NCBI GenBank assembly: GCA_965116355.1
Contig: OZ220679.1
Span: 1,118,669 to 1,182,668 of the forward strand
Length of the DNA stretch: 64,000 bases
Reading direction: 5' to 3'
Source of the DNA: Dehalococcoidia bacterium
GTDB taxonomy: Bacteria > Chloroflexota > Dehalococcoidia > Lucifugimonadales > UBA1127
The notes under the pieces were generated by a model that did no database searches, was not told where the DNA came from, and saw nothing but the letters and a program-made list of their open reading frames with translations. Position 1 is the stretch's first letter; each line of letters opens with the position of its first letter. Made by a program: the position numbers and the translations under genes. Below, piece after piece: positions 2,270 through 36,492 of the stretch.

Positions 2270-2338
2270 ACGAGGGTCGCCCCTACGCGTTTGGAGGGGG
2301 TCGCGTTTGTCGGGGTTCCTGCCTTCGCAGGAACGACG
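2270..2338. repeat. REP-like elements (REP-C fragment + REP-B hairpin)
   Basis: TCGCCCCTACG fragment, then GGGGTTCCTGC-CTTC-GCAGGAACGACG hairpin (stem 2316..2322 / 2327..2333). The same units recur at 6997.., 11633.., 12891.. and 12981... Confidence 0.8.
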
Positions 2339-8405: not shown

Positions 8406-8435
8406 AGTGTACGCCCGTCACGTGACGGCGGTCAA
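8406..8435 (-). promoter_or_regulatory. candidate promoter TTGACC-18-TACACT with a 14-bp perfect palindrome in the spacer
   Basis: Minus-strand TTGACC 8435..8430 and TACACT 8411..8406. CCGTCACGTGACGG at 8415..8428. Confidence 0.4.
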
Positions 8436-8508
8436 TTTTGCCGGGCGGCGGGGGACTCGTTTTTCTTTTTTTGAGAAACGGGTATTTTGGTAATCACCTG
8501 AACATCTA

Positions 8509-8898
8509 TCAACCCCGCCCCATGATGCGGCAGATGCTGTTGACGGTGCTGATGATGTGCTCCGGCTTGGCATCCGGATTGTTGAGAAGCGCGCGGAGGC
8601 GGACGCGGAGGACGCCGACCTCCGGGGCGAGGCCGCGAATCTCCATGGCTTCCTGCAGGTCTTGCTGTTCCTCCGGGGTCAAGTACTTGGCGTAGAAGCC
8701 GTGCTTGCGTGCGTTCTGGTTGCCGGGCTGGCCGCCGGAGTTTCTGCGTTCGGGTTCCTCCAGGGTTTCCTGCTCCAACTCATCTTCGAGGTCATCGAGG
8801 GCGTCGAGGGCCTTGGCTTTGCGGTAGTCCTGGTAGTTGTGGGCGGCGCGGATCATGTCGGTCATTTCCTTGAGGATGTCGGTCTGGGGCTCCTCCAT
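8509..8898 (-). CDS. small acidic/basic protein, possible phage small-terminase-like or DNA-binding protein (129 aa)
   Basis: ATG 8898 with AAGGAGG SD; the track start at 9063 runs through a repeat and the TcmP 3' end. MEEPQTDILKEM...GGQPGNQNARKHGFYAKYLTPEEQ... The GNxNAxKHG motif recalls N-termini of some phage small terminases, but this is a weak call. Confidence 0.55.
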   Translation of the reverse strand: MEEPQTDILKEMTDMIRAAHNYQDYRKAKALDALDDLEDELEQETLEEPERRNSGGQPGNQNARKHGFYAKYLTPEEQQDLQEAMEIRGLAPEVGVLRVRLRALLNNPDAKPEHIISTVNSICRIMGRG

Positions 8899-8950
8899 GG
8901 CGGGCCTCCTTTGGGTGTGTGTGCATGGAGGACTGTAGCGCGCGGGGCGG

Positions 8951-8978
8951 GGGATGGGGGAGGGGTTGGTGTCAGGGG
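8951..8978. repeat. 28-bp element GGGATGGGGGAGGGGTTGGTGTCAGGGG, copy 1 (copy 2 at 20089..20116)
   Basis: Exact 28/28 identity between the two copies. Each ends 13 nt from a TAnnnT -10-like hexamer on the minus strand (TACAGT 8937..8932; TACCCT 20075..20070). Confidence 0.85.
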
Positions 8979-8980
8979 GG

Positions 8981-9820
8981 TTACCAGTGCTTGAGGATGT
9001 GATCTGCGATGTTGATGGCAATGCGGGCGCCACGCGGGTTGCCTGCAGCAAAGAACAGCTCAAAAATCTCTACGTTCCGCGAGTTCCTGAATGTGCGACG
9101 CGTTGGAGCAACAGCGTGAAACGCGGATTCCAACCGTGCGCGATAGGCTTCCGCAATTTGCTTTGTCCCAGTTGAACGGCTTTGCCGTCGCTCACTGTCG
9201 AACATTGAGAGCTGTGGAGACTCGCTGTAATGACCATACCAGAAGGAACGGCCTCCAAATACTCTATCCAAGCGGCTCGCCAAAGCCGGGCTAGGCTCGC
9301 CATTTCTCCGCATCATGCGAGTAACTGCCATAAGAGGGAACAGAATCCAGCAGTCAATTTTCTTTGTGTCCGCGATGGCAGCTACCGTATCCCAAGACAC
9401 CTCTGTTGCGAACGGATCCAAAAACACAACAGCGCGATCATAAGGCCTCATATCGCGACAGAACCTTTGCACTTCGGCGTTCGCGTCACCTTGAACTACC
9501 TGAATCATTCGCTCAGGGAATTCACTTGCTAGCAGTCGCAAGTCCTCAACTCGGCTTCTATCCTTTTCAATGAATAGGAAGCGGTCAAATGGACGGTTGT
9601 CTATGCTGAGCGCAATTCTCGCAGAACCCGCGTGTACCTCTTGGAATTCTGCGTACTCTTGCGAGGCTTCAACATATGCGCCCGCACCAGCAAACCCGTC
9701 CACATAGGTCAACGTAAAGGGTTGATCCTTCATTACGGTGGTGTAGGCGTCAAGGTAACGTCTGAGGATTTCGAGCTTTTCCGATGTCCATTGGCCGCCA
9801 AACGATGGTACGTTAGTCAT
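8981..9820 (-). CDS. tcmP: three-Cys-motif partner protein TcmP-like (279 aa)
   Basis: MTNVPSFGGQWTSEKLEILRRYLDAYTTVM...LTYVDGFAGAGAY...GSARIALS...FLFIEKD...VVFLDPF matches my recollection of the TcmP family. Starts 2 nt after the DUF5131 stop. Lower G+C than the flanks. Confidence 0.8.
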   Translation of the reverse strand: MTNVPSFGGQWTSEKLEILRRYLDAYTTVMKDQPFTLTYVDGFAGAGAYVEASQEYAEFQEVHAGSARIALSIDNRPFDRFLFIEKDRSRVEDLRLLASEFPERMIQVVQGDANAEVQRFCRDMRPYDRAVVFLDPFATEVSWDTVAAIADTKKIDCWILFPLMAVTRMMRRNGEPSPALASRLDRVFGGRSFWYGHYSESPQLSMFDSERRQSRSTGTKQIAEAYRARLESAFHAVAPTRRTFRNSRNVEIFELFFAAGNPRGARIAINIADHILKHW

Positions 9821-10577
9821 GGTTGGCCGCTCTGTCCGGCATCTCGCGCCATGTTTCGCCGTCAACGACGGCTGCGGCTCCGCCACGCTTGTTTCGGGAT
9901 CCGCCAAGCTGCTTCAGGAAGAAGGCTACGCCCGCCTCTTGCGACTGGTCCCGGAGAAAGCGAACCCACTCCATGTCCATCGGGCGGGCTGCACGGCCGC
10001 TCTCGCCTCCAACGATCAGCCACTGCACGTCGCCGTTGTCGAGCCAGTGGCTCAGGTCCACCTGCCCGAGGAGAGGCTCAGCGGAGACGAAGCGGATGGG
10101 GGCGGGAAGGCGAGACAGAACCGTGATGCGCGGGGCGTACTTTTGGTTTTCGACAGACGTGCCAATCCACACATTCACGGGCCATTCGTCAGCAAAGGCG
10201 GACTTGTTTTCCTCCCACCATGCGACTGCTCGGCCTGGCCGCTTGGTCAGCACCTGGAAGACGTGCCCGCGGGACTCGGCGGCTTCTTGCATGACCTCAA
10301 AGGCGGCCGTCACGAATTCAAAGGGCACGTCATGGTGGAAGAGGTCAGACATGCTGTTGACGAAAACGTGCCGCGGCGTTCCCCAACGGAGCGGCACGTT
10401 CAGACGTTCCGGCAGCAGCCGTACGGTGCTCGGCTCACTTTCGTAGCCCGGCACGCCCATAGCGGTGAGTCGAGGGTAGAGGGCATACATGTAGCAGTGG
10501 TCGCAACCCGGTGACACGCGGGTGCAGCCGGTGACGGGATTCCAAGTCTCGTCCGTCCACTCGATGTTCGACGACAT
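9813..10577 (-). CDS. phage Gp37/Gp68 family (DUF5131) protein with C-x6-C-x2-C motif (254 aa)
   Basis: MSSNIEWTDETWNPVTGCTRVSPGCDHCYMY... is the hallmark N-terminus of the family. ATG 10577 has GGAG upstream; the track TTG start at 10592 is less likely. Confidence 0.9.
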   Translation of the reverse strand: MSSNIEWTDETWNPVTGCTRVSPGCDHCYMYALYPRLTAMGVPGYESEPSTVRLLPERLNVPLRWGTPRHVFVNSMSDLFHHDVPFEFVTAAFEVMQEAAESRGHVFQVLTKRPGRAVAWWEENKSAFADEWPVNVWIGTSVENQKYAPRITVLSRLPAPIRFVSAEPLLGQVDLSHWLDNGDVQWLIVGGESGRAARPMDMEWVRFLRDQSQEAGVAFFLKQLGGSRNKRGGAAAVVDGETWREMPDRAANHD

Positions 10578-10601
10578 CTGGTCACACTCCAATCAGTAAC
10601 A

Positions 10602-10809: not shown

Positions 10810-11619
10810 TCAGGAAGTGCGGCGCGTGCCCAGCGCGTCACCCAGCAGCGCGAAGGCGGCGGCTGTGGTGGCGAGGGCGGCGGCGGGGGCGAGGGTTAGC
10901 CAGGGGGCGGTCTCGAGGAATTCGCGGCCCTCGTTGAGCATGCCGCCCCAGGACGGCGTCGGCGGGGGTGCGCCGAGGCCAAGGTAGCTGAGGGCGGCCT
11001 CGGTGGCGAGGGCGGTGGCGACGAAGCCGGTGGCGTAGACGAGGACGGGGCCGAGGCTGTGCGGGAGGACGTGCCGCAGGAGGACTCGGGCGGGGCTGGC
11101 GCCGATGGTGACGGCGGCGGCGACGTGGCCGGACGTTCGGACGGTGAGGGCGCTCGATCGGGCGAGGCGGGCGGCCTGGGGGGCGAGGGCGACGGCTATC
11201 GCCGTGGTGACGGCGCCGGTGGAGACGCCGAGGGAGACGACGATGACGACGGCGAGGGCCAGCAGGGGAAAGCCGAGGAGGGCGTCGACGACGCGCTGGA
11301 CGGCGAGGTCGAGCCAGCCGCCGCGGTAGGCGCTCGCGAGGCCGACGGCCGCGCCGACGACGGCGCCCGCCGCGACGCCGCCGACGCCGATGGCGAGGGC
11401 GGTGCGCGTGCCGTGGAGGACGCGGGAGAGGACGTCGCGGCCGAAGTTGTCGGAGCCGAGGAGGAAGCTCGCGGAGGGGGCCTCGAGGCGGCGGGCGGTG
11501 TCCTGCGCGAGGGGGTCGGCGGGCGCGAGGACGCCGGCGAGGAGGGCGGCCAGCACGGCGAGGGCGACGACGGCGGCGGGGGCGCCCTTCGACAGGCTCA
11601 GGGTGAACGGCCTCCCCAT
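10810..11619 (-). CDS. ABC transporter permease, peptide/nickel (DppC/OppC-like)
   Basis: LGSDNFGRDVLSRVLHGTR motif and multiple TM segments. The start is uncertain because REP elements (11583..11658) occupy the 5' end: ATG 11619, or 11691 as in the track. Confidence 0.85.
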   Translation of the reverse strand: MGRPFTLSLSKGAPAAVVALAVLAALLAGVLAPADPLAQDTARRLEAPSASFLLGSDNFGRDVLSRVLHGTRTALAIGVGGVAAGAVVGAAVGLASAYRGGWLDLAVQRVVDALLGFPLLALAVVIVVSLGVSTGAVTTAIAVALAPQAARLARSSALTVRTSGHVAAAVTIGASPARVLLRHVLPHSLGPVLVYATGFVATALATEAALSYLGLGAPPPTPSWGGMLNEGREFLETAPWLTLAPAAALATTAAAFALLGDALGTRRTS

Positions 11620-11658
11620 GCCCCTCCCCTCTGGGTTCCCGCCTGCGCGGGAACGACG
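11583..11658. repeat. REP-A + REP-B elements between/overlapping the two permease genes
   Basis: CGCCCTTCGACAGGCTCAGGGTGAACGG (11583..11610); GGGTTCCCGC-CTGC-GCGGGAACGACG (11633..11658). Confidence 0.85.
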
Positions 11659-11752
11659 AAAGTAGGCACTTAGGGCGAACGGAAGTCTCATGGGGACACC
11701 CCCACGCCCCGCCCCTGGATACCGGCTTTCGCCGGTAAAACGTGGTTGGAGG

Positions 11753-12739
11753 TCATGCGGTCACCGCCCGGGGTTCGGCGTGGAAGGAGACGCGGGGGTC
11801 GAGCCAGGCGTAGGCGAGGTCGAGGGCGAGGTTGACGAGGAGGACGGCGAGGACGAGGAGCGTCGTGAGGCTCTGGACGACGGGGAAGTCGCGCACGAGG
11901 GCGGCCTCGACGAGGCCCCGGCCGAGGCCGGGGAGGCCGAAGATGGACTCGAGGATGAGGGCGCCGCCGAGGAGCGTGCCGAACTGCACACCGAGGGCGG
12001 TGAGGACGGGCAGGAGGGCGTTTCGGAGGGCGTGGCCGAGGACGACCTGCCGCTCCGGGAGGCCCTTGGCGACGGCGGTGCGGACGTAGGGCTGCTCGAG
12101 GGTCTCGGCGACGGCGGCCCGGGCGACGCGGAGGACGTGGGCGCCGTACTCCCACGACAGGAGCGCTGCCGGGATGGCGACCATGAGGACGTGCTCCCAC
12201 GGGTCCTCGAAGGGGCTCGCGTAGACGATGGGGGGCGACCAGCCGAGCAGGAGCAGCAGGCCGAGGAGGGCCAGCAGGGCGAGGAGGAAGCTGGGCGTCG
12301 CGAGGCCGGGCAGCATGGCGAGCCTCGCGCAGTGGTCGGGCCAACGGCCGCGCTGCCAGCCGGCGACGACGCCGAGGGGGAGCCAGACGACGAGGGTGAT
12401 CGCGAGGGCGTAGAGGGCGAGGAGGGCGGTGACGGGCGCCTGGCGGGCGATCTGCGAGCGGATGGACTGACCGTCGATGAGGGCGTCGCCGCCGAAGGAG
12501 CCGTCGAACATGGCGGCGAGCCAGCGGGCGTACTGGACGGGGAGCGGGTCGTCGAGGCCGAGCTCGGCGCGGAGGGCCTCACGGACCTCGGGCGAGTGGG
12601 TGGTCTCGCCGCCGCCGGAGAGGATGGTGGCGGCGACGTCGCCGGGGAGGGCGCGCATGACGGCGAAGACGACGAGGGAGGCGAGGAGGGCCGTCGGGAG
12701 GAGCAGCGCGAGGCGTCGGGCGAGGTAGGCGTACGTCAT
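11753..12739 (-). CDS. ABC transporter permease, peptide/nickel (DppB/OppB-like)
   Basis: MTYAYLARRLALLLPTALLASLVVFAVMRALPGDVA... is a typical N-terminus. ATG 12739 is preferred over the track start at 12823. Confidence 0.9.
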   Translation of the reverse strand: MTYAYLARRLALLLPTALLASLVVFAVMRALPGDVAATILSGGGETTHSPEVREALRAELGLDDPLPVQYARWLAAMFDGSFGGDALIDGQSIRSQIARQAPVTALLALYALAITLVVWLPLGVVAGWQRGRWPDHCARLAMLPGLATPSFLLALLALLGLLLLLGWSPPIVYASPFEDPWEHVLMVAIPAALLSWEYGAHVLRVARAAVAETLEQPYVRTAVAKGLPERQVVLGHALRNALLPVLTALGVQFGTLLGGALILESIFGLPGLGRGLVEAALVRDFPVVQSLTTLLVLAVLLVNLALDLAYAWLDPRVSFHAEPRAVTA

Positions 12740-12810
12740 GGCGATGGGGCGCTCCGTCGGCGTGTGTGTTGGGGACAGGATACGGCATGGGGGGCGTTCG
12801 TGGGGGAATG

Positions 12811-13006
12811 ACCCCCATCCCAACCCCGTATCAAGTACGGGGCAGGCTCTTCCCCCTCAAAGGGGGAAGGGGCCTCCTCCCCGCCCCTTTGGGTTCCCGC
12901 CTTCGCGGGAACGACGATGGTGGGAGCGGGACGGGCGATTCGCGAATCGCCCCTACGGGGGTGCGGGTTGGGAAGCGTCGGGGTTCCTGCCTTCGCAGGA
13001 ACGACG
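12811..13006. repeat. 200-bp array of four REP-like units (D, B, C, B) filling the SBP-permease intergenic region
   Basis: ACCCCCATCCCAACCCC..CTTCCCCCT-CAA-AGGGGGAAG (12811..12869), GGGTTCCCGC-CTTC-GCGGGAACGACG (12891..12916), GGGCGATTCGCGAATCGCCCCTACG (12933..12957), GGGTTCCTGC-CTTC-GCAGGAACGACG (12981..13006). Confidence 0.9.
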
Positions 13007-13011
13007 GGGAG

Positions 13012-14772
13012 TTACGGGCGGTCCAGCCAGACGGTGGTGAAGTCTGTGTGGGTGTGGCCGTCCTCGGGGGGGACGACGAGGCCTTTGACGTGGGTGCGGT
13101 AGGGGGCGACGTAGATGGCCTCGGCTATGGCGGCGATGTAGGTCTGCTCGACGAAGATGTAGCGCTGGAGCTGGCGCCAGACATCCAGGCGGCGCTCGGG
13201 GAGGGTGGCCTCGCGGAGGAGGCGGTAGAGCTCGGCGACCTTGGGGTCCTCGTGCTTGGCGTAGGAGTCGGGGGAGACGGAGTACGTGCCGTAGACGCCC
13301 TCGGTGCCCTCGGGGATGGGCAGGACGGAGAGGCGGCCCTGCTGGGAGTCGAAGTCGAGGCTGGTGCGGGCGCGGTTCCACTCGCCCTCGTCGACGAGCT
13401 GGACGCGGAGGTCGACGCCGAGCTCGCGGAGCTGGGCCTGGAGGAACTGGCAGCCGGTGGCCTGGCGGGCGCGGCAGAGGTGGCCCATGGAGAAGCCGAG
13501 GGAGTAGCCGGCCTGCGCCATGAGGCGCACCGCCTCGGCGCGGCGCTCCTCGAGGGGCTCTCGGTCGAAGGTGGGCCAGACGACGTAGGCCTTGTCCTTG
13601 AAGCGGTTGGGCGGGCCGAGGCTGGGCGTCGTCCACCCGAAGCCGCCCAGGACGACGGGTATGGCGGCGTCGCGGTCGATCCACAGGGCCATGGCGCGAC
13701 GGACGCGGGGGTCCTGCCAGGGGCCGGGCTTGAGGACGTTGAAGGCGAGGCGGTACATGCCGCCCTCCATCTCGGCGTAGAAGACGGAATCGCCAAGGTC
13801 GTCGTCGTAGCCGCGCTTGCGCTCGACGGTGAGGTAGTGGCCGAAGCCGCGCGCGCCGCCGTCAAGGCGGCCGGAGCGGAAGGCGGCGTCCATGGCGGCG
13901 GGCTCGCGGATGATGACGTAGTCGATGCCGTCGAGGAAGGGCATGGGGCGGCCGGCGTTGTCGGTCTCGAAGTAGGCGTCGTTGCGCTGGACGCGGATGC
14001 GGGTGCCGCGGTCGTAGTCCTCGAAGGCGAAGGGGCCGAGGCCGACGAGGCCGACGTCGAGGGGGGACACGGAGACGTCGCCGGCCTGCAGGCGGGGCTC
14101 CATGAGGTGCTTCGGGTGGGCGAACTTCAGGCGTGGGTTGGCGAGGACATCGAGAAAGAAGCGGTTGCGCTCGCCGAGGACGATGCGGACGCGGTTGTCG
14201 GGGAGGGCCTCGACGCTGTCGATCTCACCGAGGTCGCCCTTGAAGTAGGCGGGAGCGCGGACCACGCCGTCGGCCTCGTAGCCGTTGAGGGCGAGGTCGA
14301 ACCAGAACTCGACGTCGGCGGCGGTGAAGGGCGTGCCGTCGTGCCAGGTGACGTCGTCGCGGAGGGTGAAGGTCCACTCGGTGTGGCTGGGGTCGACGGT
14401 CCAGGTGGTGGCGAGGTAGGGGCAGGCGAGGTAGAGGTTGCCGCGGCAGCGCATGACGAGGTTGCCGGGGCCGAAGAGGGCGCCGCCGACGTGGTGGAGG
14501 GCGATGCTGCTGGTGCGCATGGTGTCAAAGCCGGAGGGCGGGTCGCCGCGGTTGGCGAGGACGAGGACGCCGCCGTAGGGGCCCTCGGCGGGAGGGGGCT
14601 GGGGGGTTGGGGTGGCGAGGGACAGGGAGGGAGTCGCGGCGGGGTTGGCAGCGGCGGTGGGGGCGGCGAGAGGCGCGTCGGCGTTCGACGCGGGCGCGGG
14701 ATCGTCGGCGGCGGTGCAGGCCGCCGCGAGGGCGAGGCACAGGGCGAGCAGGACGAACGCGCGGCGTGTCAT
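13012..14772 (-). CDS. ABC transporter substrate-binding lipoprotein, family 5 (peptide/nickel)
   Basis: MTRRAFVLLALCLALAAAC lipobox, then a Pro/Ala-rich linker and an SBP_bac_5-like body. ATG 14772 is preferred. Confidence 0.9.
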   Translation of the reverse strand: MTRRAFVLLALCLALAAACTAADDPAPASNADAPLAAPTAAANPAATPSLSLATPTPQPPPAEGPYGGVLVLANRGDPPSGFDTMRTSSIALHHVGGALFGPGNLVMRCRGNLYLACPYLATTWTVDPSHTEWTFTLRDDVTWHDGTPFTAADVEFWFDLALNGYEADGVVRAPAYFKGDLGEIDSVEALPDNRVRIVLGERNRFFLDVLANPRLKFAHPKHLMEPRLQAGDVSVSPLDVGLVGLGPFAFEDYDRGTRIRVQRNDAYFETDNAGRPMPFLDGIDYVIIREPAAMDAAFRSGRLDGGARGFGHYLTVERKRGYDDDLGDSVFYAEMEGGMYRLAFNVLKPGPWQDPRVRRAMALWIDRDAAIPVVLGGFGWTTPSLGPPNRFKDKAYVVWPTFDREPLEERRAEAVRLMAQAGYSLGFSMGHLCRARQATGCQFLQAQLRELGVDLRVQLVDEGEWNRARTSLDFDSQQGRLSVLPIPEGTEGVYGTYSVSPDSYAKHEDPKVAELYRLLREATLPERRLDVWRQLQRYIFVEQTYIAAIAEAIYVAPYRTHVKGLVVPPEDGHTHTDFTTVWLDRP

Positions 14773-14834
14773 GCGACTATTGTGCTGGGGGGAGCGTGGA
14801 GCGTCCACTCCCCTAAGGCAGTCATCTCGTGTCG

Positions 14835-15754: not shown

Positions 15755-15794
15755 GGTCTCTCCTATCTGGGGACTGCTTTGTCTTGCGCCACGA

Positions 15795-15831
15795 ACCCCC
15801 ATCCTACCCTTCCCCCTGCGAGGGGGAAGGG
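15795..15831. repeat. REP-D element
   Basis: ACCCCCATCCTACC-CTTCCCCCT-GCG-AGGGGGAAGG. Same architecture as 12811..12869. Confidence 0.8.
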
Positions 15832-15837
15832 ACCTTG

Positions 15838-17820
15838 TTACAGGCCGGTCAGGGTGATCTTCTGCTGGTACTTGGGTGTGCCTGTGCGGCTGTAGTCGAG
15901 TTCGAGGGCGGATACGCGAAGGCGCTCGGCGGTGGGTGCGCCGGGCGTGTGGATTTCGACGACGTCGTGGAGCTCGAGGGCGCAGTTGGGTGGGGCCAGG
16001 AGCTCGCCGGCGCGAGCTTCGCGGCGGGTGCGAGCGAGGATGTCGGCGGCGCGGGCCTCGGCGTCGGCAGCCGTGCGCTGGTTGAGGTCGTTGAGTTGGA
16101 GGAGGCGCTCGCCGAGGAGGGGAAGGGCGGGCCAGTCGAGGGCCTCGCCGACGGCGTCGGCGGCGCCGAAGACCTGGACACGGGTGGCGTCGGGGGCGCC
16201 GGCGGCAAGGCGGACGCGGTGAACGGCGTGGTACGTGCCGAAGGCGTAGCCGGCGGCGTCCGTTGGCTGCGGGTTCGTGAGGCGGGCGATGCGGCCCCGG
16301 AAGTGGAGAAGGTCTGGGGCGAGGGACATGAGACGCCGGATGGCGGTGGCGCCGGACTCGCCGGGGTGGACGGTGAAGGCGGGACGGTGCGAGAGCATGG
16401 CCGCGCTGGGACTGGCGGCTTCGAGGCCGAGGCCGACGCGCTGGAGGATGAAGCCGAGGATGGAGGCAAGGGCGGCCTCGCCGCGAGCCCAGGCGAACTG
16501 ACGGCGGGCGCGCCAGGCGGCAAGGAGGGCCCAGCCGTCGCCGGCGTGGACGACGAGGCTGGCCTCGCCGCCGCCGTAGCGGTGCTCCCAGCCGGTGACC
16601 CAGAAGGCGGGGCCCGCCGAGGTCTCGACGCCGGAAGGGGTCTCGTAGCCGGGGCTGACGCGCAGCTCCGTGCCCTCGCGGATAGGGGCGCCGACGCTGC
16701 CGACAGCGTCGTAGCGGCCGTCGTCGTTGCGGAGGGCGAGGGTGAGCGCGGCGCCGCGAGGGGTCTCCCGCATGGTGAGCGAGAGGACGTCGGCGGAGAG
16801 GTCGCGGGACGTGGCGTCGAGGGCAGCGCGCCAGACGCCGTCGGGAGTGGCGAGCCAGAGGGAGTTTGCGTCGCCGGCAAGCGCGACGCCGTGGGGGGCG
16901 CCGGCCTCGAGCGGGACGGGGTCGGCCCAGGAGTTGGCGTCGAACGCCGTGCCGGCGAGGGTGTTGAACATGAGGGGGCGTTGGTAGCCGCCCGCGCCGG
17001 TGTAGCGCTCCACGACGGTCAGGCGGTCGACTTGTCCAAGTCGGGCAACCTCGGCGACGTGCAGGAAAGGCGCGTCGAAAGTGACGGCGGAGCCCGCGTC
17101 GGCGCGGGTGATCTCGCGGAGGGGCGACCACGCGCCGTCATAGGTGGCCGACCAGACGCGGTTGCGGCCGGCGGCGTCGACGCCGGTGACGGCGAGCCGC
17201 CACGCAATGTCGGCGTCGCAGGCAAGGCCGGTGACGCTCGTGAGGGAGTAGTCGTGGGCCGCGAGAGCGCTCCACGCTGCGCCGGTGCGCGTCGCGACGT
17301 GGAGGCGGCCATCGTCGCTCGCGAGGAAGAGGGCGGGCGTCCCGGAGGCGTCGAAGGCGGCGGCGAGGCGCACTACCGCGCCGCCGGCGAGGGTGGCGGC
17401 GACGCGGCGGGCTGCCCACGTGGCGCCGGAGTCGGCGCTCTCACGGACGCAGACGGCGCGGGGATCGGCGGGGTCGCGGAAGGCGACAAGGACCGTCGCG
17501 CCGTGGGCGCAGGCGGCGACGCTGCTGGCCGTCGCGGTGGTGTCGAGGCGCGTCCACGCCGAGAAGTCGCTCGATGGGCCGGGGGCGGCGACGCGTTGGA
17601 CGTAGAGGGCGCCGTCGGCCTCGGCGACGCGGGCGCGCACGAGGGAGCCGTCGGCGGGCATGGCGGCGGCGTGGTGGAAGGACGCCTCGTCGCCGACGTA
17701 CAGGCGGGCGAAGTGCGCCCGTGGGACGCCCGCGAGCATGTCGAGGGCCTCGACGCGGACGTGGGGGCGGCCGGAGGCGGCGGTCTGGGCGGTCAGGAGG
17801 GCGTTGGAGATGGCGCGCAT
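15838..17820 (-). CDS. phage tail/host-recognition-like protein with Asp-box (BNR) motif (660 aa)
   Basis: ATG 17820 (MRAISNALLTAQ...) lies 2 nt after the upstream stop. SADSGATW is an S-x-D-x-G-x-T-W Asp-box within a repetitive beta-rich N-half. The C-half has no recognised family. Sits in a phage structural context. Confidence 0.6.
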   Translation of the reverse strand: MRAISNALLTAQTAASGRPHVRVEALDMLAGVPRAHFARLYVGDEASFHHAAAMPADGSLVRARVAEADGALYVQRVAAPGPSSDFSAWTRLDTTATASSVAACAHGATVLVAFRDPADPRAVCVRESADSGATWAARRVAATLAGGAVVRLAAAFDASGTPALFLASDDGRLHVATRTGAAWSALAAHDYSLTSVTGLACDADIAWRLAVTGVDAAGRNRVWSATYDGAWSPLREITRADAGSAVTFDAPFLHVAEVARLGQVDRLTVVERYTGAGGYQRPLMFNTLAGTAFDANSWADPVPLEAGAPHGVALAGDANSLWLATPDGVWRAALDATSRDLSADVLSLTMRETPRGAALTLALRNDDGRYDAVGSVGAPIREGTELRVSPGYETPSGVETSAGPAFWVTGWEHRYGGGEASLVVHAGDGWALLAAWRARRQFAWARGEAALASILGFILQRVGLGLEAASPSAAMLSHRPAFTVHPGESGATAIRRLMSLAPDLLHFRGRIARLTNPQPTDAAGYAFGTYHAVHRVRLAAGAPDATRVQVFGAADAVGEALDWPALPLLGERLLQLNDLNQRTAADAEARAADILARTRREARAGELLAPPNCALELHDVVEIHTPGAPTAERLRVSALELDYSRTGTPKYQQKITLTGL

Positions 17821-17822
17821 GG

Positions 17823-18458
17823 CTAGGCCCCCCGGACCCGGAGGTGGCGCGGCGCGGGCTCGCCCTCGGCGTACATGCGGCGGACGCGGACGCCACGGCG
17901 GGAGGCGGCGCGGCCGAGGGCGAGCTGGAAGGCCTCGAGGCGCTCGTTGCCCCAGACGCGGTAGCGGCGGGCGGTGTCCTCGCCGCCAAGGTTGACGCGG
18001 TTGGCGGCGTAGCTGGCCCACGCGAGGGCGGCGTAGGCGGTGGCGCCCAGCGCGACGGCGTCCTCCAGGTGCTCCGGGACGGTGGAGGAGGCGGCGTCCA
18101 GGGTGTGGAGCTTTGTGTAGTAGACGCGGAGCTGTTCTCCGCCGGCGGGCGTCGCGTCGGACTGGAGGGTGAGGGAGGCGGCCCAGCGGCTGAAGGGGAC
18201 GAAGCAGGCGGGGTTTCGGCCGAGCGGGTACTCGACGGCCTCGACGTCGAGGAGGCCGGCGAGGGAGGTGAGCGTCACCTCGCGGCTGCCGGCGACGGTG
18301 GCCAGCGTGGCGACGGACTCGGCGGGGGCGACTCTGCTGAGGTCATGGACGGCGTGCCGGACGTGGCGGTCGATCTCGTCGTCGGACCAGCGCTCGGCGG
18401 CGGGGTCGGTGTCGCGCAGGTCGCGGCGGACGAGGGTCCGCATCTCGGCGATGTTCAT
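17823..18458 (-). CDS. phage head-tail connector/adaptor-like protein (211 aa)
   Basis: MNIAEMRTLVRRDLRDTDPAAERWSDDEIDRHVRHAVHDLS resembles gp6-like connector N-termini. Position is downstream of the capsid gene. TAGGAGC SD. Confidence 0.5.
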   Translation of the reverse strand: MNIAEMRTLVRRDLRDTDPAAERWSDDEIDRHVRHAVHDLSRVAPAESVATLATVAGSREVTLTSLAGLLDVEAVEYPLGRNPACFVPFSRWAASLTLQSDATPAGGEQLRVYYTKLHTLDAASSTVPEHLEDAVALGATAYAALAWASYAANRVNLGGEDTARRYRVWGNERLEAFQLALGRAASRRGVRVRRMYAEGEPAPRHLRVRGA

Positions 18459-18482
18459 GGCTGGCTCCTATCGGCGGCTTAG

Positions 18483-18511
18483 GCGCCCTTCGACCAACTC
18501 AGGTCGAGCGG
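18483..18511. repeat. REP-A-like element
   Basis: GCGCCCTTCGACCAACTCAGGTCGAGCGG. Confidence 0.7.
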
Positions 18512-18956: not shown

Positions 18957-18990
18957 CTCCGCGGGCAGCCCGCACGGATCCCCTCCCCGG

Positions 18991-19113
18991 CGCCCTTCGA
19001 CAGGCTCAGGGCGAACGGATTTGGCGGCTCGTTCCCCAACTAGCGCCACGCGCCCGTTCATGCCCTTGGAGAACCTCAGGACAGGCTTCGAGTCCCCTCA
19101 GCACGAACGGGCG
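18991..19113. repeat. two REP-A elements downstream of the capsid gene
   Basis: CGCCCTTCGACAGGCTCAGGGCGAACGG (18991..19018); CGCCCGTTCATGC...CTCAGGACAGGCTTCGAG...GCACGAACGGGCG (19051..19113). Confidence 0.85.
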
Positions 19114-19125: not shown

Positions 19126-20016
19126 CTAGTCACGCACTCCTGTGAGCTTGGCTAGCTTGAGAGTGCTGAAGCAGGCGATTGAGACGTACCACTTCACCCG
19201 GACCCGCGTGGCGTCCTTGCTTTCGAGACTGCCGACGCGCTCGGCGACGAGGCCGCCGGGGGCGGTGAGGCCGGCGACAGCGCCCTCGCCGAACTGGAGG
19301 GCGTAGATGGTGGAGGCGTCCGTCGACGAGCCGGCGCGGTTGTCGTCGGTGATGTGGTCGGAGACGCCGACGGGCACGCCGTCGTAGTAGTCGAGCATCA
19401 TGCCGAACTCGTTGCGATCGGAGACGAGGAGGCCGCTGCCGGCGCCGCGGGAGAGGGCGGTGAGCTTGCGGCGGGAGCGGCGGGACATGAGGAGCATGTG
19501 GGGCTTGCCGTCGATGACCTTGTCGATGAGCTCGTCCACCTTGTCGAGGGTGAGGGTGGCGCCGTTGGCGCCCATGGAGACGGTCTGGGCGGCGGTGGTC
19601 AGCTTGTCGATGCCGTCGAAGGACTTGGCGTCGGAGGAGGTGTCGCCGTTGACGAAGGTGTCCTCGAACTTGGCGCGGACGGCCTTGGCCTTGAGCTCGA
19701 CGACGGCGGCCTCGAGGTCCTGGACGTTGGAGCGGGTGGCGCGGAGGTAGTTGTCGACGTCGGCGTCGCCGCCGAGGATGGCGAGGGTGGCGGTGGCCTG
19801 GGTGAAGGTGGGGGTGGACTCGGCCCAGCCGTCACCGACGGTGTAGAAGGCGGCGGCGGGCGCGGTGTTCTCACGGTTGTACGTGAGGCCGTTGCCGACA
19901 ACCTCGATGAAGGGCAGGGCCTGGAGGACGGGGCTTTCCTTGACGATGGTCTCTATGACGCCGGTCAGGAGCATGTCGTTTGAGAGCTTCGCGCCCTCTG
20001 CCAGGGTGAGTGCCAT
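19126..20016 (-). CDS. HK97-fold phage major capsid protein (296 aa)
   Basis: LSNDMLLTGVIETIVKESPVLQALPFIEVVGNGLTYNRE...ATLAILGGDADVDNYL...FEDTFVNGDTSSDAKSFDGI... follows the Phage_capsid (HK97) pattern. GAGAGGAG SD. No delta/scaffold domain is apparent. Confidence 0.85.
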   Translation of the reverse strand: MALTLAEGAKLSNDMLLTGVIETIVKESPVLQALPFIEVVGNGLTYNRENTAPAAAFYTVGDGWAESTPTFTQATATLAILGGDADVDNYLRATRSNVQDLEAAVVELKAKAVRAKFEDTFVNGDTSSDAKSFDGIDKLTTAAQTVSMGANGATLTLDKVDELIDKVIDGKPHMLLMSRRSRRKLTALSRGAGSGLLVSDRNEFGMMLDYYDGVPVGVSDHITDDNRAGSSTDASTIYALQFGEGAVAGLTAPGGLVAERVGSLESKDATRVRVKWYVSIACFSTLKLAKLTGVRD

Positions 20017-20088
20017 GGGGACTCCTCTCCGCGGGCCGATCGGTGCGGCCCGACTTGTGTGATGCGGAGAGGGTAGAACGGGTGTGCT

Positions 20089-20116
20089 GGGATGGGGGAG
20101 GGGTTGGTGTCAGGGG
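20089..20116. repeat. 28-bp element, copy 2
   Basis: Identical to 8951..8978. Lies 73 nt upstream of the capsid ATG and 13 nt from TACCCT (20075..20070, minus strand). Confidence 0.85.
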
Positions 20117-20272
20117 TGGGGTTGCGGCGGACTCCTTACGGAACTGAAATGCTGTAATCCTACGACGCACTGGGGCAGCTTTGGTGCTATTGTTGAGACA
20201 TCAGCTTAGGCTTCAAGGTTGCAGCAGATGCGTAGCAAGAATAGCAGTCCAGATTCCACAGGAACGACTTGA

Positions 20273-21184
20273 ATGGACTTTACGAAACTCTTTGACGTGT
20301 TTTCGAGGCGCTCAGTGCTCAATGGCATCGACAGCCATCCTCTCACGCCACAATTCAAATACCGTTTCGCAAAGCTCTGCGCTGAGTACTTTTCCAACAA
20401 TGGCTTCATTGAAGAGTTTTGGTGGGAGATCAAAAGCAAGTTCGAATACTTGGAAGGCGGATCAATCGCTCAAGGGGGTAACACACTAGAAGTGGCTACA
20501 GGAGTGCTGGCATTTCTAGAACAGTGTGACGACAAGAAGTTCCTTGACTTTGTAGAGTTGGTCTTCAAGTTAGAGCACTTGCCTCCCGCCCTTATGGAAG
20601 AGCACCCCTTAGTCCGAAGCGTAAACCAATTCTTCGAACTGGATGGGCTGCCCTACGCCTTAACTGACTTCAGTTGGGAGGAGATTGAGGAGACTGAAGG
20701 CTGGTCTTCTGGCAAGAGTTATAGGTTATCCACTTATCCCCAAGTTGTCCTACGGGAGAGCGAGGTTGTCTATCAGAACGCAATTCTCCCATTGCTTACG
20801 CTCTTGCGCCAAGCTCATTTCTCAACGGCCAATGAGGAGTTCCTTAAGGGTCTTGCTGATTTTCGCAATGGTGACCACGAAGATTGCGTCGTTAAGTGTG
20901 TGAGCGCTTTCGAGAGTGTTCTGAAGGTGATTTGCCAGAGGAAGGGGTGGTCCTACAGTCAATCTGACACTGCCAAGGCTCTTGTGCCAAAAGTATTGGG
21001 TAAGACTTCGTTGGAGGAATTCTACAGGGAACCCTTGGTTCTAGTCGCAGACATAAGGAACCGTCAGAGCAGCGCTCACGGGGGTGGCGATCAGCCAAAG
21101 CGCGTCCCAAAGCACGTGGCCAACTATGTCATCAACTCCACGGCGGCTGCCATCTTGCTCTTGGTGCAAGAGGCCAATCTCTAG
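20273..21184 (+). CDS. AbiJ-like / STM4504-type protein: AbiJ N-terminal-like domain + C-terminal HEPN domain (303 aa)
   Basis: The C-terminus FSTANEEFLKGLADFRNGDHEDCVVKCVSAFESVLKVIC...IRNRQSSAHGGG contains an Rx4-6H HEPN motif. The N-terminus FSRRSVLNGIDSHPLTPQFKYRF is AbiJ-NTD-like. Clearly lower G+C. Confidence 0.7.
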   Translation: MDFTKLFDVFSRRSVLNGIDSHPLTPQFKYRFAKLCAEYFSNNGFIEEFWWEIKSKFEYLEGGSIAQGGNTLEVATGVLAFLEQCDDKKFLDFVELVFKLEHLPPALMEEHPLVRSVNQFFELDGLPYALTDFSWEEIEETEGWSSGKSYRLSTYPQVVLRESEVVYQNAILPLLTLLRQAHFSTANEEFLKGLADFRNGDHEDCVVKCVSAFESVLKVICQRKGWSYSQSDTAKALVPKVLGKTSLEEFYREPLVLVADIRNRQSSAHGGGDQPKRVPKHVANYVINSTAAAILLLVQEANL

Positions 21185-21320
21185 AACACGGACTATGGCC
21201 GCTCAAGAGTAGTGCTTTGTGCCCTTGCCAAGTCGTCAAGCTTACCTAGCACCTTAAGTGTTTCATCAGTCATGTTTGTTGATTCTTGATTCGACAGGCA
21301 GAGAGGAAGGCCCCGCCCCC

Positions 21321-26793: not shown

Positions 26794-28135
26794 CGAGGCG
26801 GTCGGCCCAACGAGTGGGCCGGTCGGCCCGGCTGGCGGGCCAGAGGGGCAGTTCCTCCCCAACCTGCTGCTCTTCGGCAGGCTGCTGCGTCGGGTGGGCC
26901 TCGACGTGCACGCGGGGCGAATGCTGGACGCGGTGCACGTGCTCGAGGACATCGGACTGCGGCGGCGGGGCGACGTGCACGCGGTGCTGCGCACGCTGCT
27001 GGTGCACCGCCGCGAGGACCTACCCGTCTTCGACGAGGCTTTCTCCGTCTTCTGGCGGCAGCGCAAGGACCAGACGTTCACCATGGACCTGCGCTCCATG
27101 GGCGAGCAGCGCCGCTACCGGTACGTCGAGGCGGGGCCGCCGCCGCTCGGGCAGCCCTCGGACGCCGTGGGCGGCGAGGACGACAGCTCGGAGGAGGGCG
27201 GCGACCGCATCGACATCACACGCACCTACAGCGCGCGCGAGGTGCTGCAGACCAAGGACTTTTCCGAATACACGCCGTCGGAGATGGCGCAGGCCCGGCT
27301 GCTGATGGCGTCGCTGGCGTGGAATCCGGGCACTCGGCGGTCGCGGCGGCTGGAGCGCGGAGACGGCCACGGCCTCGACCTTCGGCGGACGCTGCGGGAC
27401 AACGCGCGGTACGGCGGCGAGCTGCTCGAGCTGCGCCGGCGTCGTCGGAAGGAGAAGCCGCGCAAGCTGGTCGTCGTCTGCGACGTCAGCGGCTCCATGG
27501 AGCGCTACACGCGGATGCTGCTGCACTTCATCCACAGCCTGTACGGGGGTCTGAACGGGCAGGTGGAGGCCTTCCTCTTCGCGACGCGGCTGACGCGGGT
27601 CACCAAGCAGCTCCAGCACCGGGACATCGACCAGGCGGTGGGTGACGTGTCGAAGGCGGTGCCGGACTGGTCGGGCGGGACGCGCATCGGGGCGGCGCTG
27701 CGGGAGTTCAACTTCACGTGGGCGCGCCGGACGCTGGGGTGGGGGTCGATCGTGCTGGTCGTGTCCGACGGCTGGGACCGGGGCGAGCCGGAGCTGCTGG
27801 GGCGCGAGATGGAGCGGCTGCAGCGGAGTTGCCGGCGGCTGATCTGGCTGAGCCCGCTGGCCGGCGTCGAGGACTACGAGCCGCTGACGCGGGGGCTGCG
27901 CGCGGCGACGCCGTACGTCGACGATCTGCTGCCGGTGCACAACCTGGCGGCGCTGATGGACCTGGCGCGGCACCTGAACTCGCTGACGTCGGGCGCGCCG
28001 GAGCGGCGGCAGCGGCCCTCGCCTGCGGCGGACGAGGCAAGCGAGGAGGAGCCGTCGGCGCCGGTGCAACGCTCGTGGCACCGGGACGCGAACCCGACGT
28101 TCCGGCACCCGCTGTGGGGGCGGGGGGATCCCTAA
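26786..28135 (+). CDS. coxE: VWA domain protein (CoxE-like)
   Basis: MIDAS motif VVVCDVSGSM in the C-terminal VWA domain. Overlaps coxD by 8 nt. Confidence 0.85.
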   Translation: MASEAVGPTSGPVGPAGGPEGQFLPNLLLFGRLLRRVGLDVHAGRMLDAVHVLEDIGLRRRGDVHAVLRTLLVHRREDLPVFDEAFSVFWRQRKDQTFTMDLRSMGEQRRYRYVEAGPPPLGQPSDAVGGEDDSSEEGGDRIDITRTYSAREVLQTKDFSEYTPSEMAQARLLMASLAWNPGTRRSRRLERGDGHGLDLRRTLRDNARYGGELLELRRRRRKEKPRKLVVVCDVSGSMERYTRMLLHFIHSLYGGLNGQVEAFLFATRLTRVTKQLQHRDIDQAVGDVSKAVPDWSGGTRIGAALREFNFTWARRTLGWGSIVLVVSDGWDRGEPELLGREMERLQRSCRRLIWLSPLAGVEDYEPLTRGLRAATPYVDDLLPVHNLAALMDLARHLNSLTSGAPERRQRPSPAADEASEEEPSAPVQRSWHRDANPTFRHPLWGRGDP

Positions 28136-35192: not shown

Positions 35193-35194
35193 TG

Positions 35195-36460: not shown

Positions 36461-36492
36461 GCTCAATTTGCAGATAGTGAGGTTTGCACAAG

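What the first reader, a model, noticed from the sequence alone, without database searches (positions are those of the whole stretch)
8932..8978. Exact 28-bp element shared by two phage-like genes 11 kb apart, each copy 13 nt from a -10-like hexamer
GGGATGGGGGAGGGGTTGGTGTCAGGGG occurs at 8951..8978 and again, 28/28 identical, at 20089..20116. In the direction of the downstream minus-strand genes it reads CCCCTGACACCAACCCCTCCCCCATCCC. In both places it ends exactly 13 nt upstream of a TAnnnT hexamer: TACAGT at 8937..8932 before the 129-aa GNQNARKHG protein, and TACCCT at 20075..20070 before the HK97-type capsid gene. The flanking sequences are otherwise unrelated. The element covers the position where a -35 box should be but does not resemble TTGACA. 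This suggests a dedicated activator or alternative sigma factor that co-regulates two dispersed phage-derived genes. Such an arrangement is reminiscent of late promoters or of scattered GTA-type loci. The alternative is one more REP family; it shares a CCCCCATCC core with REP-D.
Basis: seen in the sequence. Interest (0 to 1): 0.65.

Follow-up and report, generated by a model that had tools for sequence, protein, structure and literature searches.

The report
Shared promoter for capsid and terminase-like genes
The repeated 28-base element is the upstream half of a conserved promoter-like unit that, in this uncultured Chloroflexota lineage, sits in front of both a vertically inherited phage capsid operon and scattered small-terminase-like genes, which suggests that these phage-derived genes are switched on together.

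Summary
The 28-mer occurs exactly twice (8951-8978, 20089-20116), none expected by chance, and each copy lies 13 nt from a TAnnnT hexamer. It has no hairpin potential and there is no third copy in the window.

Related Dehalococcoidia/Chloroflexota genomes show that it is the 5' part of a roughly 55-nt unit with fixed geometry:
- a CCCTGACACSAAC box at about -52 to -40;
- a weak -35-like hexamer (TCCCCC here; TTGCGC or TTGACC in orthologues);
- an 18-nt spacer;
- TACCCT.

Of 30 independent hits to the first 22 nt, 25 carry TAnnnT at exactly the same distance.

The unit precedes capsid-gene orthologues. It also precedes a multi-copy family of cassettes that encode a small-terminase-like protein (GGQPGNQNARKHGFY motif); many copies are internally deleted remnants.

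The capsid promoter also carries a LexA-type GAAC-N4-GTTC palindrome in its spacer.

The terminase-like cassettes are themselves a dispersed repeat family. The identity across all 28 bases, beyond the conserved core, most likely reflects recent gene conversion.

The more novel reading is a gene-transfer-agent-like system in Chloroflexota. It is possible but untested.

The parts
8951..8978 (-). 28-mer, copy 1. It spans positions -1 to 26 of the promoter unit: the CCCTGACACCAAC box (8977-8965), the -35-like hexamer TCCCCC (8961-8956) and the first 5 nt of the 18-nt spacer.
   Evidence: Exact match; register taken from the alignment of 32 units.
8932..8937 (-). -10-like hexamer TACAGT of the terminase-like gene. 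The start of transcription is predicted near 8926 (CATG).
   Evidence: Sequence; TAnnnT at this exact distance in 25 of 30 related copies. The start site is inferred, not mapped.
8509..8898 (-). 129-aa small-terminase-like gene with the GGQPGNQNARKHGFY motif; Shine-Dalgarno AAGGAGG at 8911-8905. It is a 3'-truncated member of the cassette family: the conserved C-terminal ..QRRYRFG tail is missing.
   Evidence: PHROG small-terminase families; alignment A2; the family consensus (not the window protein itself) hits an ORF lying just upstream of the large terminase and portal genes in Ralstonia phage Hyacinthe; orthologue next to the M16 peptidase gene in L040/L041.
8455..8483 (-). Imperfect hairpin ACCCGTTTCTC-A7-GAAAAACGAGT. 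It is the remnant of the palindromic 3' module that follows terminase-like genes in relatives.
   Evidence: compare the L010 3' region.
20089..20116 (-). 28-mer, copy 2: box at 20115-20103, -35-like TCCCCC at 20099-20094, and the first 5 nt of the spacer.
   Evidence: orthologous capsid promoters in alignments A1 and A3.
20076..20087 (-). GCACACCCGTTC in the promoter spacer. It is a one-mismatch copy of the GAAC-N4-GTTC palindrome, which is perfect in the orthologues L002, L003, L045, L136 and L137. This is a candidate LexA operator.
   Evidence: motif definition from PMC3323433.
20070..20075 (-). -10-like hexamer TACCCT of the capsid operon. The start of transcription is predicted near 20063-20064.
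20017..20062 (-). Capsid 5' leader with the conserved hairpin CGGGCCG..CGGCCCG (about 20032-20052) and Shine-Dalgarno GGAGAGGAG (20030-20022).
   Evidence: Alignment A1.
19126..20016 (-). HK97-fold major capsid protein, 296 aa. It is 74-95% identical to the 120 best database hits, nearly all 296 aa long, from Chloroflexota MAGs.
   Evidence: synteny in L001-L003, L136 and L137.
17823..18458 (-). Head-tail adaptor (SU10_adaptor family).
15838..17820 (-). 660-aa tail hub protein: an N-terminal beta-propeller plus a C-terminal Mu gp44 / T4 gp27 / VgrG-type hub fold.
   Evidence: AlphaFold model with pLDDT 89; Foldseek 1wru 5.7e-15 and many baseplate hubs; conserved at 41-84% identity in Chloroflexi.

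Best explanation
The 28-mer is the upstream half of a lineage-specific promoter unit of the sigma-70 type. Relative to a start site predicted about 6-7 nt after the -10, the unit has four parts:
- an invariant box, CCCTGACAC(C/G)AAC, at about -52 to -40;
- a weak -35-like hexamer, T(T/C)(G/C)C(G/C)C;
- an 18-nt spacer;
- a strong TACCCT -10.

In this genome the unit drives the capsid-adaptor-tail-hub operon and one small-terminase-like gene. In relatives it also heads several further terminase-like cassettes. The -35 is poor and the box is invariant, so transcription probably needs a protein bound at the box, that is, a dedicated activator. That would couple expression of the packaging-type genes to the capsid operon. 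The capsid promoter alone also carries a LexA-type palindrome in its spacer, which suggests repression that is lifted by DNA damage.

The identity across all 28 bases goes beyond the conserved core (positions 17-26 vary between orthologues). It is best explained by recent gene conversion or promoter capture between the two loci, in line with the homogenised 5' ends of the four terminase-like paralogues in the source genome.

Shown: the sequence architecture, its conservation, and its association with these genes. Inferred: promoter activity, the start site, the activator, LexA control and gene conversion.
For: - The exact duplicate is not expected by chance.
- A scan of GTDB genomes with the first 22 nt (made degenerate to cover the orthologous variants) gave 28 hits in Chloroflexota MAGs, 1-7 per genome, and about 7 scattered hits elsewhere.
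- Counting L001 and L003 as well, 25 of 30 related copies have TAnnnT at exactly positions 40-45; 20 of these are TACCCT.
- Downstream features are capsid orthologues (WIN, L001, L003, L004) and intact terminase-like genes (WIN, L010, L017, L022, L024-L027, L031). L005 carries a second small-terminase type (phrog_2538). The remaining hits are internally deleted cassette remnants.
- Capsid orthologues at 73-92% identity keep the box, the -35, the palindrome and the -10 in register. The -35 is TTGACC or TTGACT in L045, L056 and L044, which shows that this is the capsid gene's own promoter.
- Within one genome (OZ244559), the box of the capsid promoter matches the box of its cassettes at 12 of 13 positions.
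- A canonical TTGACC-18-TACACT promoter lies before the neighbouring M16 peptidase gene, so the 18-nt spacing is native here.
- The paralogues P0121, P0123 and P0124 share an identical first 36 aa but are only about 50% identical afterwards.
- There is no hairpin.
- Both genes have Shine-Dalgarno sequences and show purifying selection (dN/dS 0.27-0.56).
Against: - There are no transcription data.
- The simple sigma-70 consensus scan does not call either site, because the -35 is only 2/6 in this genome.
- No regulator gene is identified.
- The box has no dyad or obvious direct-repeat symmetry.
- Many copies of the unit sit in decayed cassettes next to housekeeping genes, in either orientation. 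Part of the conservation could therefore reflect spread of a repeat rather than selection for regulation.
- The source genome itself could not be searched, so the copy number and contexts there are unknown.
- The terminase assignment rests on weak profile hits and position only. The AlphaFold model has no structural match.
Confidence: 0.65

Rival explanations
1. The element is only the 5' end of a dispersed, possibly mobile cassette (promoter-like head, small-terminase-like gene, palindromic 3' module). Its presence before the capsid gene is a leftover of an old insertion. Any co-regulation is incidental.
For: - Cassettes occur in several strict copies per genome (up to 7), sometimes in tandem. 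They include internally deleted, MITE-like remnants next to ValRS, GatB, VWA and DLH genes, in either orientation to their neighbours.
- Assemblies break inside the repeated 5' end.
- REP elements pile up just upstream.
Against: - The capsid-upstream unit is kept in register in orthologues down to about 73% protein identity. There it has a canonical -35/-10 and a LexA-type palindrome that cassettes lack.
- The terminase-like family is much narrower (76 hits against more than 5000 for the capsid).
- The capsid promoter therefore looks older, and the cassettes look like the borrowers.
- No transposase, no terminal inverted repeat of the unit and no target duplication were seen.
Confidence: 0.15
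2. The 28-mer is an attachment or recombination site for genomic islands, because both copies abut low-GC islands (methyltransferase-like gene plus DUF5131 at 8981-10592; Abi-like gene at 20273-21184).
For: - The composition drops to 51-55% GC right next to both copies.
- The space upstream of the capsid gene is a variable hotspot in relatives, holding PIN/Phd, Fic or DUF433/DUF5615 genes.
Against: - There is no second full or partial copy at the far end of either island.
- No integrase gene lies beside them.
- In relatives the same sequence is present with different or no islands, and always with the -10 at a fixed distance.
- Islands ending at the edge of a promoter is what selection against promoter disruption would produce.
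Confidence: 0.05
3. The element is a REP-type extragenic repeat or a G-quadruplex-forming tract with a structural role only.
For: - The window holds several REP families.
- The 28-mer shares CCCCCATCC with one of them.
- The + strand has four G-runs (GGG, GGGGG, GGGG, GGGG).
Against: - There is no hairpin potential.
- There are only two copies in 64 kb, and a profile search finds no diverged copies.
- In relatives the G-runs are broken (..CCTCGCGCC..), while the TGACAC box and the TACCCT spacing are kept. Neither a palindrome nor a G4 is the conserved feature.
Confidence: 0.04

Closest known systems
Activator-dependent late promoters of temperate phages (Mu C-dependent and P2 Ogr / P4 Delta-dependent promoters; from own knowledge)
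   Same: A recognisable -10, a poor -35, and a conserved box between about -40 and -55 that several structural or packaging operons share, so that they fire together.
   Different: The box sequence is unrelated and has no dyad symmetry. No activator gene is known. The genes are chromosomal, syntenic and vertically inherited rather than part of an inducible prophage.
Gene transfer agent regulons with scattered loci (RcGTA: head-tail cluster plus separate loci, co-regulated through CtrA/GafA; from own knowledge)
   Same: Phage structural genes fixed in the chromosome, conserved across a lineage, split over more than one locus and apparently sharing a control element.
   Different: No portal, large terminase or protease gene was seen near either locus. 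The phylum and promoter motif are different. The packaging-type gene is multi-copy and lies in repeat-like cassettes, which no described GTA has. Particle production is unknown.
LexA (SOS) operators of the Gram-positive type, GAAC-N4-GTTC (PMC3323433; reported for Dehalococcoides, from memory)
   Same: The capsid promoter spacer carries this palindrome between -35 and -10, perfect in five orthologues. That is the classic position for a repressor.
   Different: The palindrome lies next to the 28-mer, not inside it. It is absent from the terminase-like cassettes. The window copy has one mismatch. LexA binding is untested.
REP / MITE-type dispersed intergenic repeats
   Same: The terminase-like cassettes are multi-copy and intergenic, often internally deleted, and surrounded by true REPs.
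   Different: The 28-mer is not palindromic. It has a fixed partner hexamer and a fixed orientation towards a gene or gene remnant. It also heads a single-copy conserved operon.

Membership tests
Sigma-70-type promoter | -10 hexamer TAnnnT at a set distance from the rest of the unit | tested here: met
   TACAGT and TACCCT in the window; 25 of 30 related copies have TAnnnT at positions 40-45, and 28 of 30 keep A2 and T6.
Sigma-70-type promoter | -35 hexamer resembling TTGACA, 16-18 nt upstream of the -10 | tested here: inconclusive
   In the window the hexamer is TCCCCC (2/6), and the consensus scan does not call it. The homologous hexamer is TTGCGC or TTGCCC in close orthologues and TTGACC or TTGACT in more distant ones, always with an 18-nt spacer.
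Sigma-70-type promoter | Transcription starts 5-9 nt after the -10 | not testable with these tools
   No RNA data. A conserved C-A-T-G at positions 51-54 is compatible with a start there.
Activator-dependent (phage-late-type) promoter set | Conserved upstream box shared by several structural or packaging genes | tested here: met
   CCCTGACACSAAC precedes capsid and terminase-like genes in several genomes, including both kinds in OZ244559.
Activator-dependent (phage-late-type) promoter set | A cognate activator protein that binds the box | not testable with these tools
   No candidate regulator gene was found next to either locus.
REP (repetitive extragenic palindrome) | Imperfect palindrome able to form a hairpin | tested here: not met
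   Minimum free energy of 0 to -2.8 kcal/mol, no better than shuffles.
REP (repetitive extragenic palindrome) | Many copies, with position and orientation unrelated to genes | tested here: not met
   Two copies in 64 kb and none diverged. Relatives have up to 7 strict copies per genome, all with a -10 and a downstream capsid or terminase-like gene or its remnant. The source genome as a whole was not searchable.
Island attachment site | Direct repeat of the site at both ends of the inserted island | tested here: not met
   No second copy or core at the far ends of either island.
Gene transfer agent | Vertically inherited, conserved phage structural genes at syntenic chromosomal sites | tested here: met
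   The capsid protein is 74-95% identical to the 120 best of several thousand database hits, nearly all 296 aa, on contigs up to 3.3 Mb. The order CoxG / variable island / capsid / adaptor / hub / SBP_bac_5 is kept in L001-L003, L136 and L137. dN/dS is 0.27-0.40.
Gene transfer agent | Complete particle and packaging gene set (portal, large terminase, protease/scaffold, tail) | tested here: inconclusive
   Only the capsid, adaptor, tail hub and terminase-like genes were seen. No portal or large terminase gene is present in the window or in the 14-21-kb loci of relatives.
Gene transfer agent | Particles that package host DNA and transfer it | not testable with these tools
   Needs experiments.
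Small terminase subunit | Sequence or structural similarity to known small terminases, and a position next to the large terminase gene | tested here: inconclusive
   PHROG small-terminase families at E=8e-7 to 2.5e-4 over residues 43-106. The window protein itself has no tblastn hit in the phage collection. The family consensus hits the ORF just upstream of the large terminase and portal genes in Ralstonia phage Hyacinthe. There is no Pfam hit and no Foldseek match. In this genome the gene is solitary, with no large terminase beside it.
LexA operator (Gram-positive type) | GAAC-N4-GTTC palindrome overlapping the core promoter | tested here: inconclusive
   The window has GCACACCCGTTC (one mismatch). 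The palindrome is perfect in L002, L003, L045, L136 and L137 at the same position. Binding is untested.

The most novel reading that the evidence does not exclude
A large Chloroflexota/Dehalococcoidia lineage carries a domesticated, SOS-controlled phage-particle system of the gene-transfer-agent type. In this reading, a conserved capsid-adaptor-tail-hub operon is co-transcribed, through the shared promoter unit, with several solitary small-terminase paralogues. Each paralogue lies beside its own palindromic, pac-like site, so that packaging of chromosomal DNA starts from several dispersed points.
Probability: 0.18. Interest if true: 0.85.

Novelty: new variant of a known kind. Interest (0 to 1): 0.6.

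Why it matters
The element gives a concrete, testable handle on a set of phage-derived genes that is fixed in the chromosomes of a widespread, uncultured bacterial lineage: a defined box, a -10, and a candidate LexA site. If the unit is a working promoter, it defines a regulon linking a strongly conserved capsid operon to multi-copy terminase-like genes. That combination is the signature expected of a domesticated particle system, such as a gene transfer agent or a helper for satellites. Full-text searches here found no description of such a system for Chloroflexota. The motif can also be used to find the missing parts of the system (portal, large terminase, regulator) in complete genomes.

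Tried and rejected
- **Rfam and tRNA scans.** Nothing at either site in the window. In 18 related loci only unrelated tRNAs were found.
- **Exact-protein look-ups of window proteins and paralogues.** Not on record, so the source genome (a 2,591,952-bp contig) could not be read. It was also not among the GTDB representatives hit.
- **Consensus sigma-70 scan.** It calls neither site.
- **Sigma-54 and ECF readings of the box.** Considered from the sequence and rejected. TGACAC-N7-TTGC has the wrong spacing for -24/-12. A GAAC-type -35 is broken in half of the copies, including the window's, and no CGTC-type -10 is conserved.
- **CTGACA as the -35.** Rejected: it lies 32 nt from the -10, and no second -10 sits 17 nt after it.
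- **Attachment-site model.** No flanking repeats.
- **Hairpin or REP model.** No structure.
- **G-quadruplex.** The G-runs are not conserved in relatives.
- **Viral contigs.** No copy of the unit was found; the single bipartite hit (L125) lies inside a coding region and is chance.
- **Terminase-like protein.** No tblastn hit in the phage collection for the window protein itself. No PDB sequence match and no Foldseek match against PDB or BFVD.
- **Scaffold-like gene.** It precedes the capsid gene in distant relatives (L071, L127) but has no counterpart in the window or in L001-L003.
- **Literature searches.** Searches for a Chloroflexi GTA or a domesticated capsid found nothing relevant.

Full report
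**1. Observation**

The 28-mer GGGATGGGGGAGGGGTTGGTGTCAGGGG is present at 8951-8978 and 20089-20116. With up to three mismatches allowed there is no third copy, and shuffles give none by chance. All relevant genes lie on the minus strand, where the element reads CCCCTGACACCAACCCCTCCCCCATCCC.

- Thirteen bases downstream lie TACAGT (8937-8932) and TACCCT (20075-20070).
- The first copy precedes a 129-aa ORF (8509-8898) with an AAGGAGG ribosome-binding site. Its only family hits are small-terminase PHROGs.
- The second copy precedes a 296-aa HK97-type capsid gene (19126-20016).
- The element has no hairpin potential.
- A profile built from 32 related copies finds no diverged copy elsewhere in the window.

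**2. Setting**

The window comes from a high-GC Chloroflexota/Dehalococcoidia genome, judged by the names attached to the homologues. The source contig is 2,591,952 bp long.

Read along the minus strand, the gene order is:
- 28-mer;
- capsid gene;
- two REP copies;
- SU10-type head-tail adaptor (17823-18458);
- a 660-aa protein (15838-17820);
- small ORFs;
- a peptide ABC transporter (10810-14808);
- a low-GC pair, DUF5131 plus a methyltransferase-like gene (8981-10592);
- 28-mer;
- terminase-like gene;
- M16 peptidase gene.

An AlphaFold model of the 660-aa protein (pLDDT 89) has an N-terminal beta-propeller. Its C-terminal half matches baseplate hub proteins: Mu gp44 at 5.7e-15, T4 gp27, VgrG and contractile-injection-system hubs. 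The operon therefore encodes head, neck and tail-tip parts of a phage-like particle.

**3. The capsid locus is chromosomal and inherited vertically**

- The capsid protein has several thousand database relatives. The best 120 are 74-95% identical, nearly all 296 aa long, and lie on contigs up to 3.3 Mb.
- In five relatives the order CoxG / variable toxin-antitoxin or defence island / capsid / adaptor / hub / SBP_bac_5 is kept.
- dN/dS against three relatives is 0.27-0.34 for the capsid protein and 0.40 for the hub protein.
- No portal or large terminase gene was seen in the window or in these loci.
- In more distant relatives a coiled-coil, scaffold-like gene directly precedes the capsid gene.

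**4. What the 28-mer is**

Aligning the capsid upstream regions of close relatives showed conservation starting exactly at CCCTGACAC and running to the start codon. I then scanned the GTDB representative genomes with the first 22 nt of the unit, made degenerate to cover the orthologous variants (CCCTGACACSAACYCCTYSCSC).

- The scan returned 35 loci. Twenty-eight are in Chloroflexota MAGs, with 1-7 per genome. About 7 are scattered single hits in unrelated taxa, as expected by chance.
- I number positions from the first C of CCCTGACAC. Counting the two previously fetched capsid loci L001 and L003, 25 of 30 related copies have TAnnnT at exactly positions 40-45, and 20 of these are TACCCT. The hexamer was not part of the search pattern.
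- The consensus is cccccaCCCTGACAC(C/G)AACCCCT(C/T)GC(G/C)C, then 18 nt, then TACCCT, then cccc.CATG.
- In this register the window's 28-mer spans positions -1 to 26. It contains the box (0-12), the -35-like hexamer (16-21, TCCCCC) and five bases of spacer.
- In capsid orthologues the homologous hexamer is TTGCGC (L001, L003) or TTGCCC (L002, L047). In orthologues at 73-78% protein identity it is TTGACC or TTGACT (L045, L056, L044). The spacer is always 18 nt and is followed by TAnnnT.
- The M16 peptidase gene next door has a textbook TTGACC-18-TACACT promoter. An 18-nt spacer is therefore normal in this organism.

The element is thus the upstream half of a promoter-like unit whose -35 has decayed in this genome, while an invariant box at about -52 to -40 is kept.

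**5. What the unit precedes**

The downstream features fall into three classes.

(a) Capsid orthologues.

(b) Intact genes of the terminase-like family.
- They are 101-149 aa long, with the invariant motif GGQPGNQNARKHGFY (alignment A2).
- L005 carries a different, helix-turn-helix small-terminase type (phrog_2538).

(c) Internally deleted remnants of such genes. They keep the leader, a few N-terminal and C-terminal codons and the 3' module, and lie next to housekeeping genes such as ValRS, GatB, VWA proteins and a dienelactone hydrolase.

Other properties of the cassettes:
- Intact cassettes are followed by a palindromic module of 100-180 nt. It has a long-range stem whose sequence differs between copies but stays complementary (for example GAGGTTGTTTCG..CGAAACAACCTC). 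It also has an inner GTAGCTGG..CCAGCTAC hairpin and extra CAGCTAC repeats. Rfam has no match.
- Cassettes lie in either orientation to their neighbours, sometimes in tandem, and usually have true REPs just upstream.
- The window's cassette is 3'-truncated. The protein lacks the ..QRRYRFG tail, and only a short hairpin (8455-8483) remains of the 3' module.
- Even so, an orthologue sits at the same place next to the M16 peptidase gene in another MAG, with dN/dS of 0.56.

Evidence on the terminase assignment:
- The PHROG hits are weak.
- The window protein itself has no tblastn hit in the phage collection. The family consensus matches an ORF immediately upstream of the large terminase and portal genes in Ralstonia phage Hyacinthe.
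- There is no Pfam hit.
- The AlphaFold model (pLDDT 78, all-helical) has no structural match.
- "Terminase-like" is therefore a provisional label.

**6. Link between the two gene classes**

- Genomes that carry cassettes also carry the capsid-hub locus: OX638292, OZ244559 and DAOUJQ01.
- In OZ244559 the capsid promoter reads CCCTGACACGAGCCCCTTCCCC - TTATGCGAACACCCGTTC - TACCCT. Its box matches the box of that genome's five cassettes at 12 of 13 positions.
- The capsid promoter looks like the older partner. It is kept in register across orthologues far more divergent than the range of the cassette family (76 database hits for the terminase-like protein against more than 5000 for the capsid).
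- The simplest history is that the cassettes acquired or share the capsid promoter, which argues for co-expression rather than coincidence.

**7. Why 28 of 28**

- Positions 17-26 vary between orthologous capsid promoters and between cassettes within other genomes. RHO3_bin_79, for example, has three different versions.
- Selection on the box alone therefore does not explain identity over all 28 bases.
- In the source genome, three of the four terminase-like paralogues (P0121, P0123, P0124) have an identical first 36 aa; P0125 differs at two positions. After that the paralogues are only about 50% identical. The 5' ends of the cassettes are therefore being homogenised.
- I infer a short, recent gene-conversion or promoter-capture event between the capsid promoter and this cassette. 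This is an inference and has not been shown.

**8. Extra control element**

- The spacer of the capsid promoter holds GAAC-N4-GTTC. It is perfect in L002, L003, L045, L136 and L137 and has one mismatch in L001, L044, L046, L047, L056 and the window (GCACACCCGTTC, 20087-20076).
- This is the LexA-binding motif of Gram-positive bacteria (PMC3323433). From memory, it was also reported for Dehalococcoides.
- Cassette promoters lack it.
- This suggests SOS control of the capsid operon. It lies beside the 28-mer, not inside it.

**9. Rivals**

- *Pure repeat or mobile-cassette terminus.* This is the main rival, and the decayed copies support it. It does not explain the deep conservation before the single-copy capsid gene.
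- *Island attachment site.* This was suggested because both copies abut low-GC DNA. It fails because no copies flank the far ends of the islands.
- *REP and G-quadruplex.* Both fail on structure and on what is conserved.
- *Sigma-54, ECF or CTGACA-as-(-35) readings.* These fail on spacing.

**10. Verdict**

The promoter and co-regulation reading is largely supported by comparative evidence, but it lacks any transcription or binding data. The REP alternative is wrong in its strict form, although the terminase-like gene does belong to a dispersed cassette family.

As a kind of thing, this is a shared, probably activator-dependent promoter of phage-derived genes. That is a known kind with a new motif, a new host lineage and an unusual multi-copy partner. 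The wider possibility is a gene-transfer-agent-like system in Chloroflexota. It is open, and the motif makes it directly testable.

Noticed in passing
window 20076-20087 (and L002, L003, L045, L136, L137): A GAAC-N4-GTTC palindrome (LexA-type) lies between the -35 and the -10 of the capsid promoter. It is perfect in five orthologues and has one mismatch in the window. This suggests SOS control of the capsid operon.
   Followed up: partly
L010, L017, L022, L024-L027, L031, L034, L011, L029, L037 (3' of terminase-like genes); remnant at window 8455-8483: A palindromic module of 100-180 nt follows the terminase-like genes. It has a variable but self-complementary outer stem, a GTAGCTGG..CCAGCTAC inner hairpin and extra CAGCTAC repeats. 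Rfam has no match. It could be a structured RNA, a pac-like protein-binding site or a MITE.
   Followed up: partly
source genome, outside the window (P0121, P0123, P0124, P0125): There are four paralogues of the terminase-like protein on the same 2.59-Mb contig. Three have an identical first 36 aa and the fourth differs at two positions; afterwards they are only about 50% identical. This indicates homogenised 5' ends or a constant/variable cassette arrangement.
   Followed up: partly
window 15838-17820 (-): A 660-aa protein with no family annotation is predicted, with high confidence, to combine an N-terminal beta-propeller with a Mu gp44 / T4 gp27 / VgrG-type baseplate hub. It is conserved at about 655 aa across Chloroflexi.
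   Followed up: yes
window 8981-10592, 20117-21300, 28132-31657, 35192-37335: Low-GC islands (50-55% against about 69% GC). They hold: a methyltransferase-like gene plus DUF5131; an Abi-like gene (DUF7014/Abi_C); an N6-methylase/HSDR_N fusion plus a 498-aa unknown; and an IrrE/M78-like peptidase plus a HAD hydrolase. The slot upstream of the capsid gene holds different toxin-antitoxin or defence genes in each relative. DUF5131 lies in the same place after the ABC permeases in L137.
   Followed up: partly
window 2309-2338, 11629-11658, 12887-12916, 12977-13006; 11571-11610, 18472-18511, 18979-19018; 15790-15835: Three REP-type families: GGGTTCCYGCCTKCGCRGGAACGACG hairpins; CCCTTCGACAGGCTCAGGGCGAACGG; and CCCCCATCCTACCCTTCCCCC..GGGGGAAGGG. 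Two copies of the second family lie between the capsid and adaptor genes. The same families crowd the DNA upstream of the cassettes in relatives.
   Followed up: partly
window 20032-20052 (-): A conserved hairpin, CGGGCCG-loop-CGGCCCG, lies in the capsid 5' leader just before the Shine-Dalgarno sequence. It is kept in L001 and L003, which differ only in the loop, and is also visible in the L136 and L137 capsid leaders.
   Followed up: no
window 8406-8435 (-): A canonical TTGACC-18-TACACT promoter precedes the M16 peptidase gene. It is a useful reference for what an unassisted promoter looks like in this organism.
   Followed up: no
L005 1660-2308: In MAG OZ241328 the same promoter unit (TTGCCC .. 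TACCAT) precedes a solitary 175-aa protein of a different small-terminase type (helix-turn-helix, phrog_2538). No other phage gene lies nearby.
   Followed up: partly
L071 3440-3952, L127 7293-7991 and most of L048-L123: In capsid relatives below about 75% identity, a coiled-coil, alanine-rich scaffold-like gene ending in ..EKIR(L/Y)GL.Q. directly precedes the capsid gene. It is absent from the window and its close relatives, where the promoter unit takes that place.
   Followed up: partly
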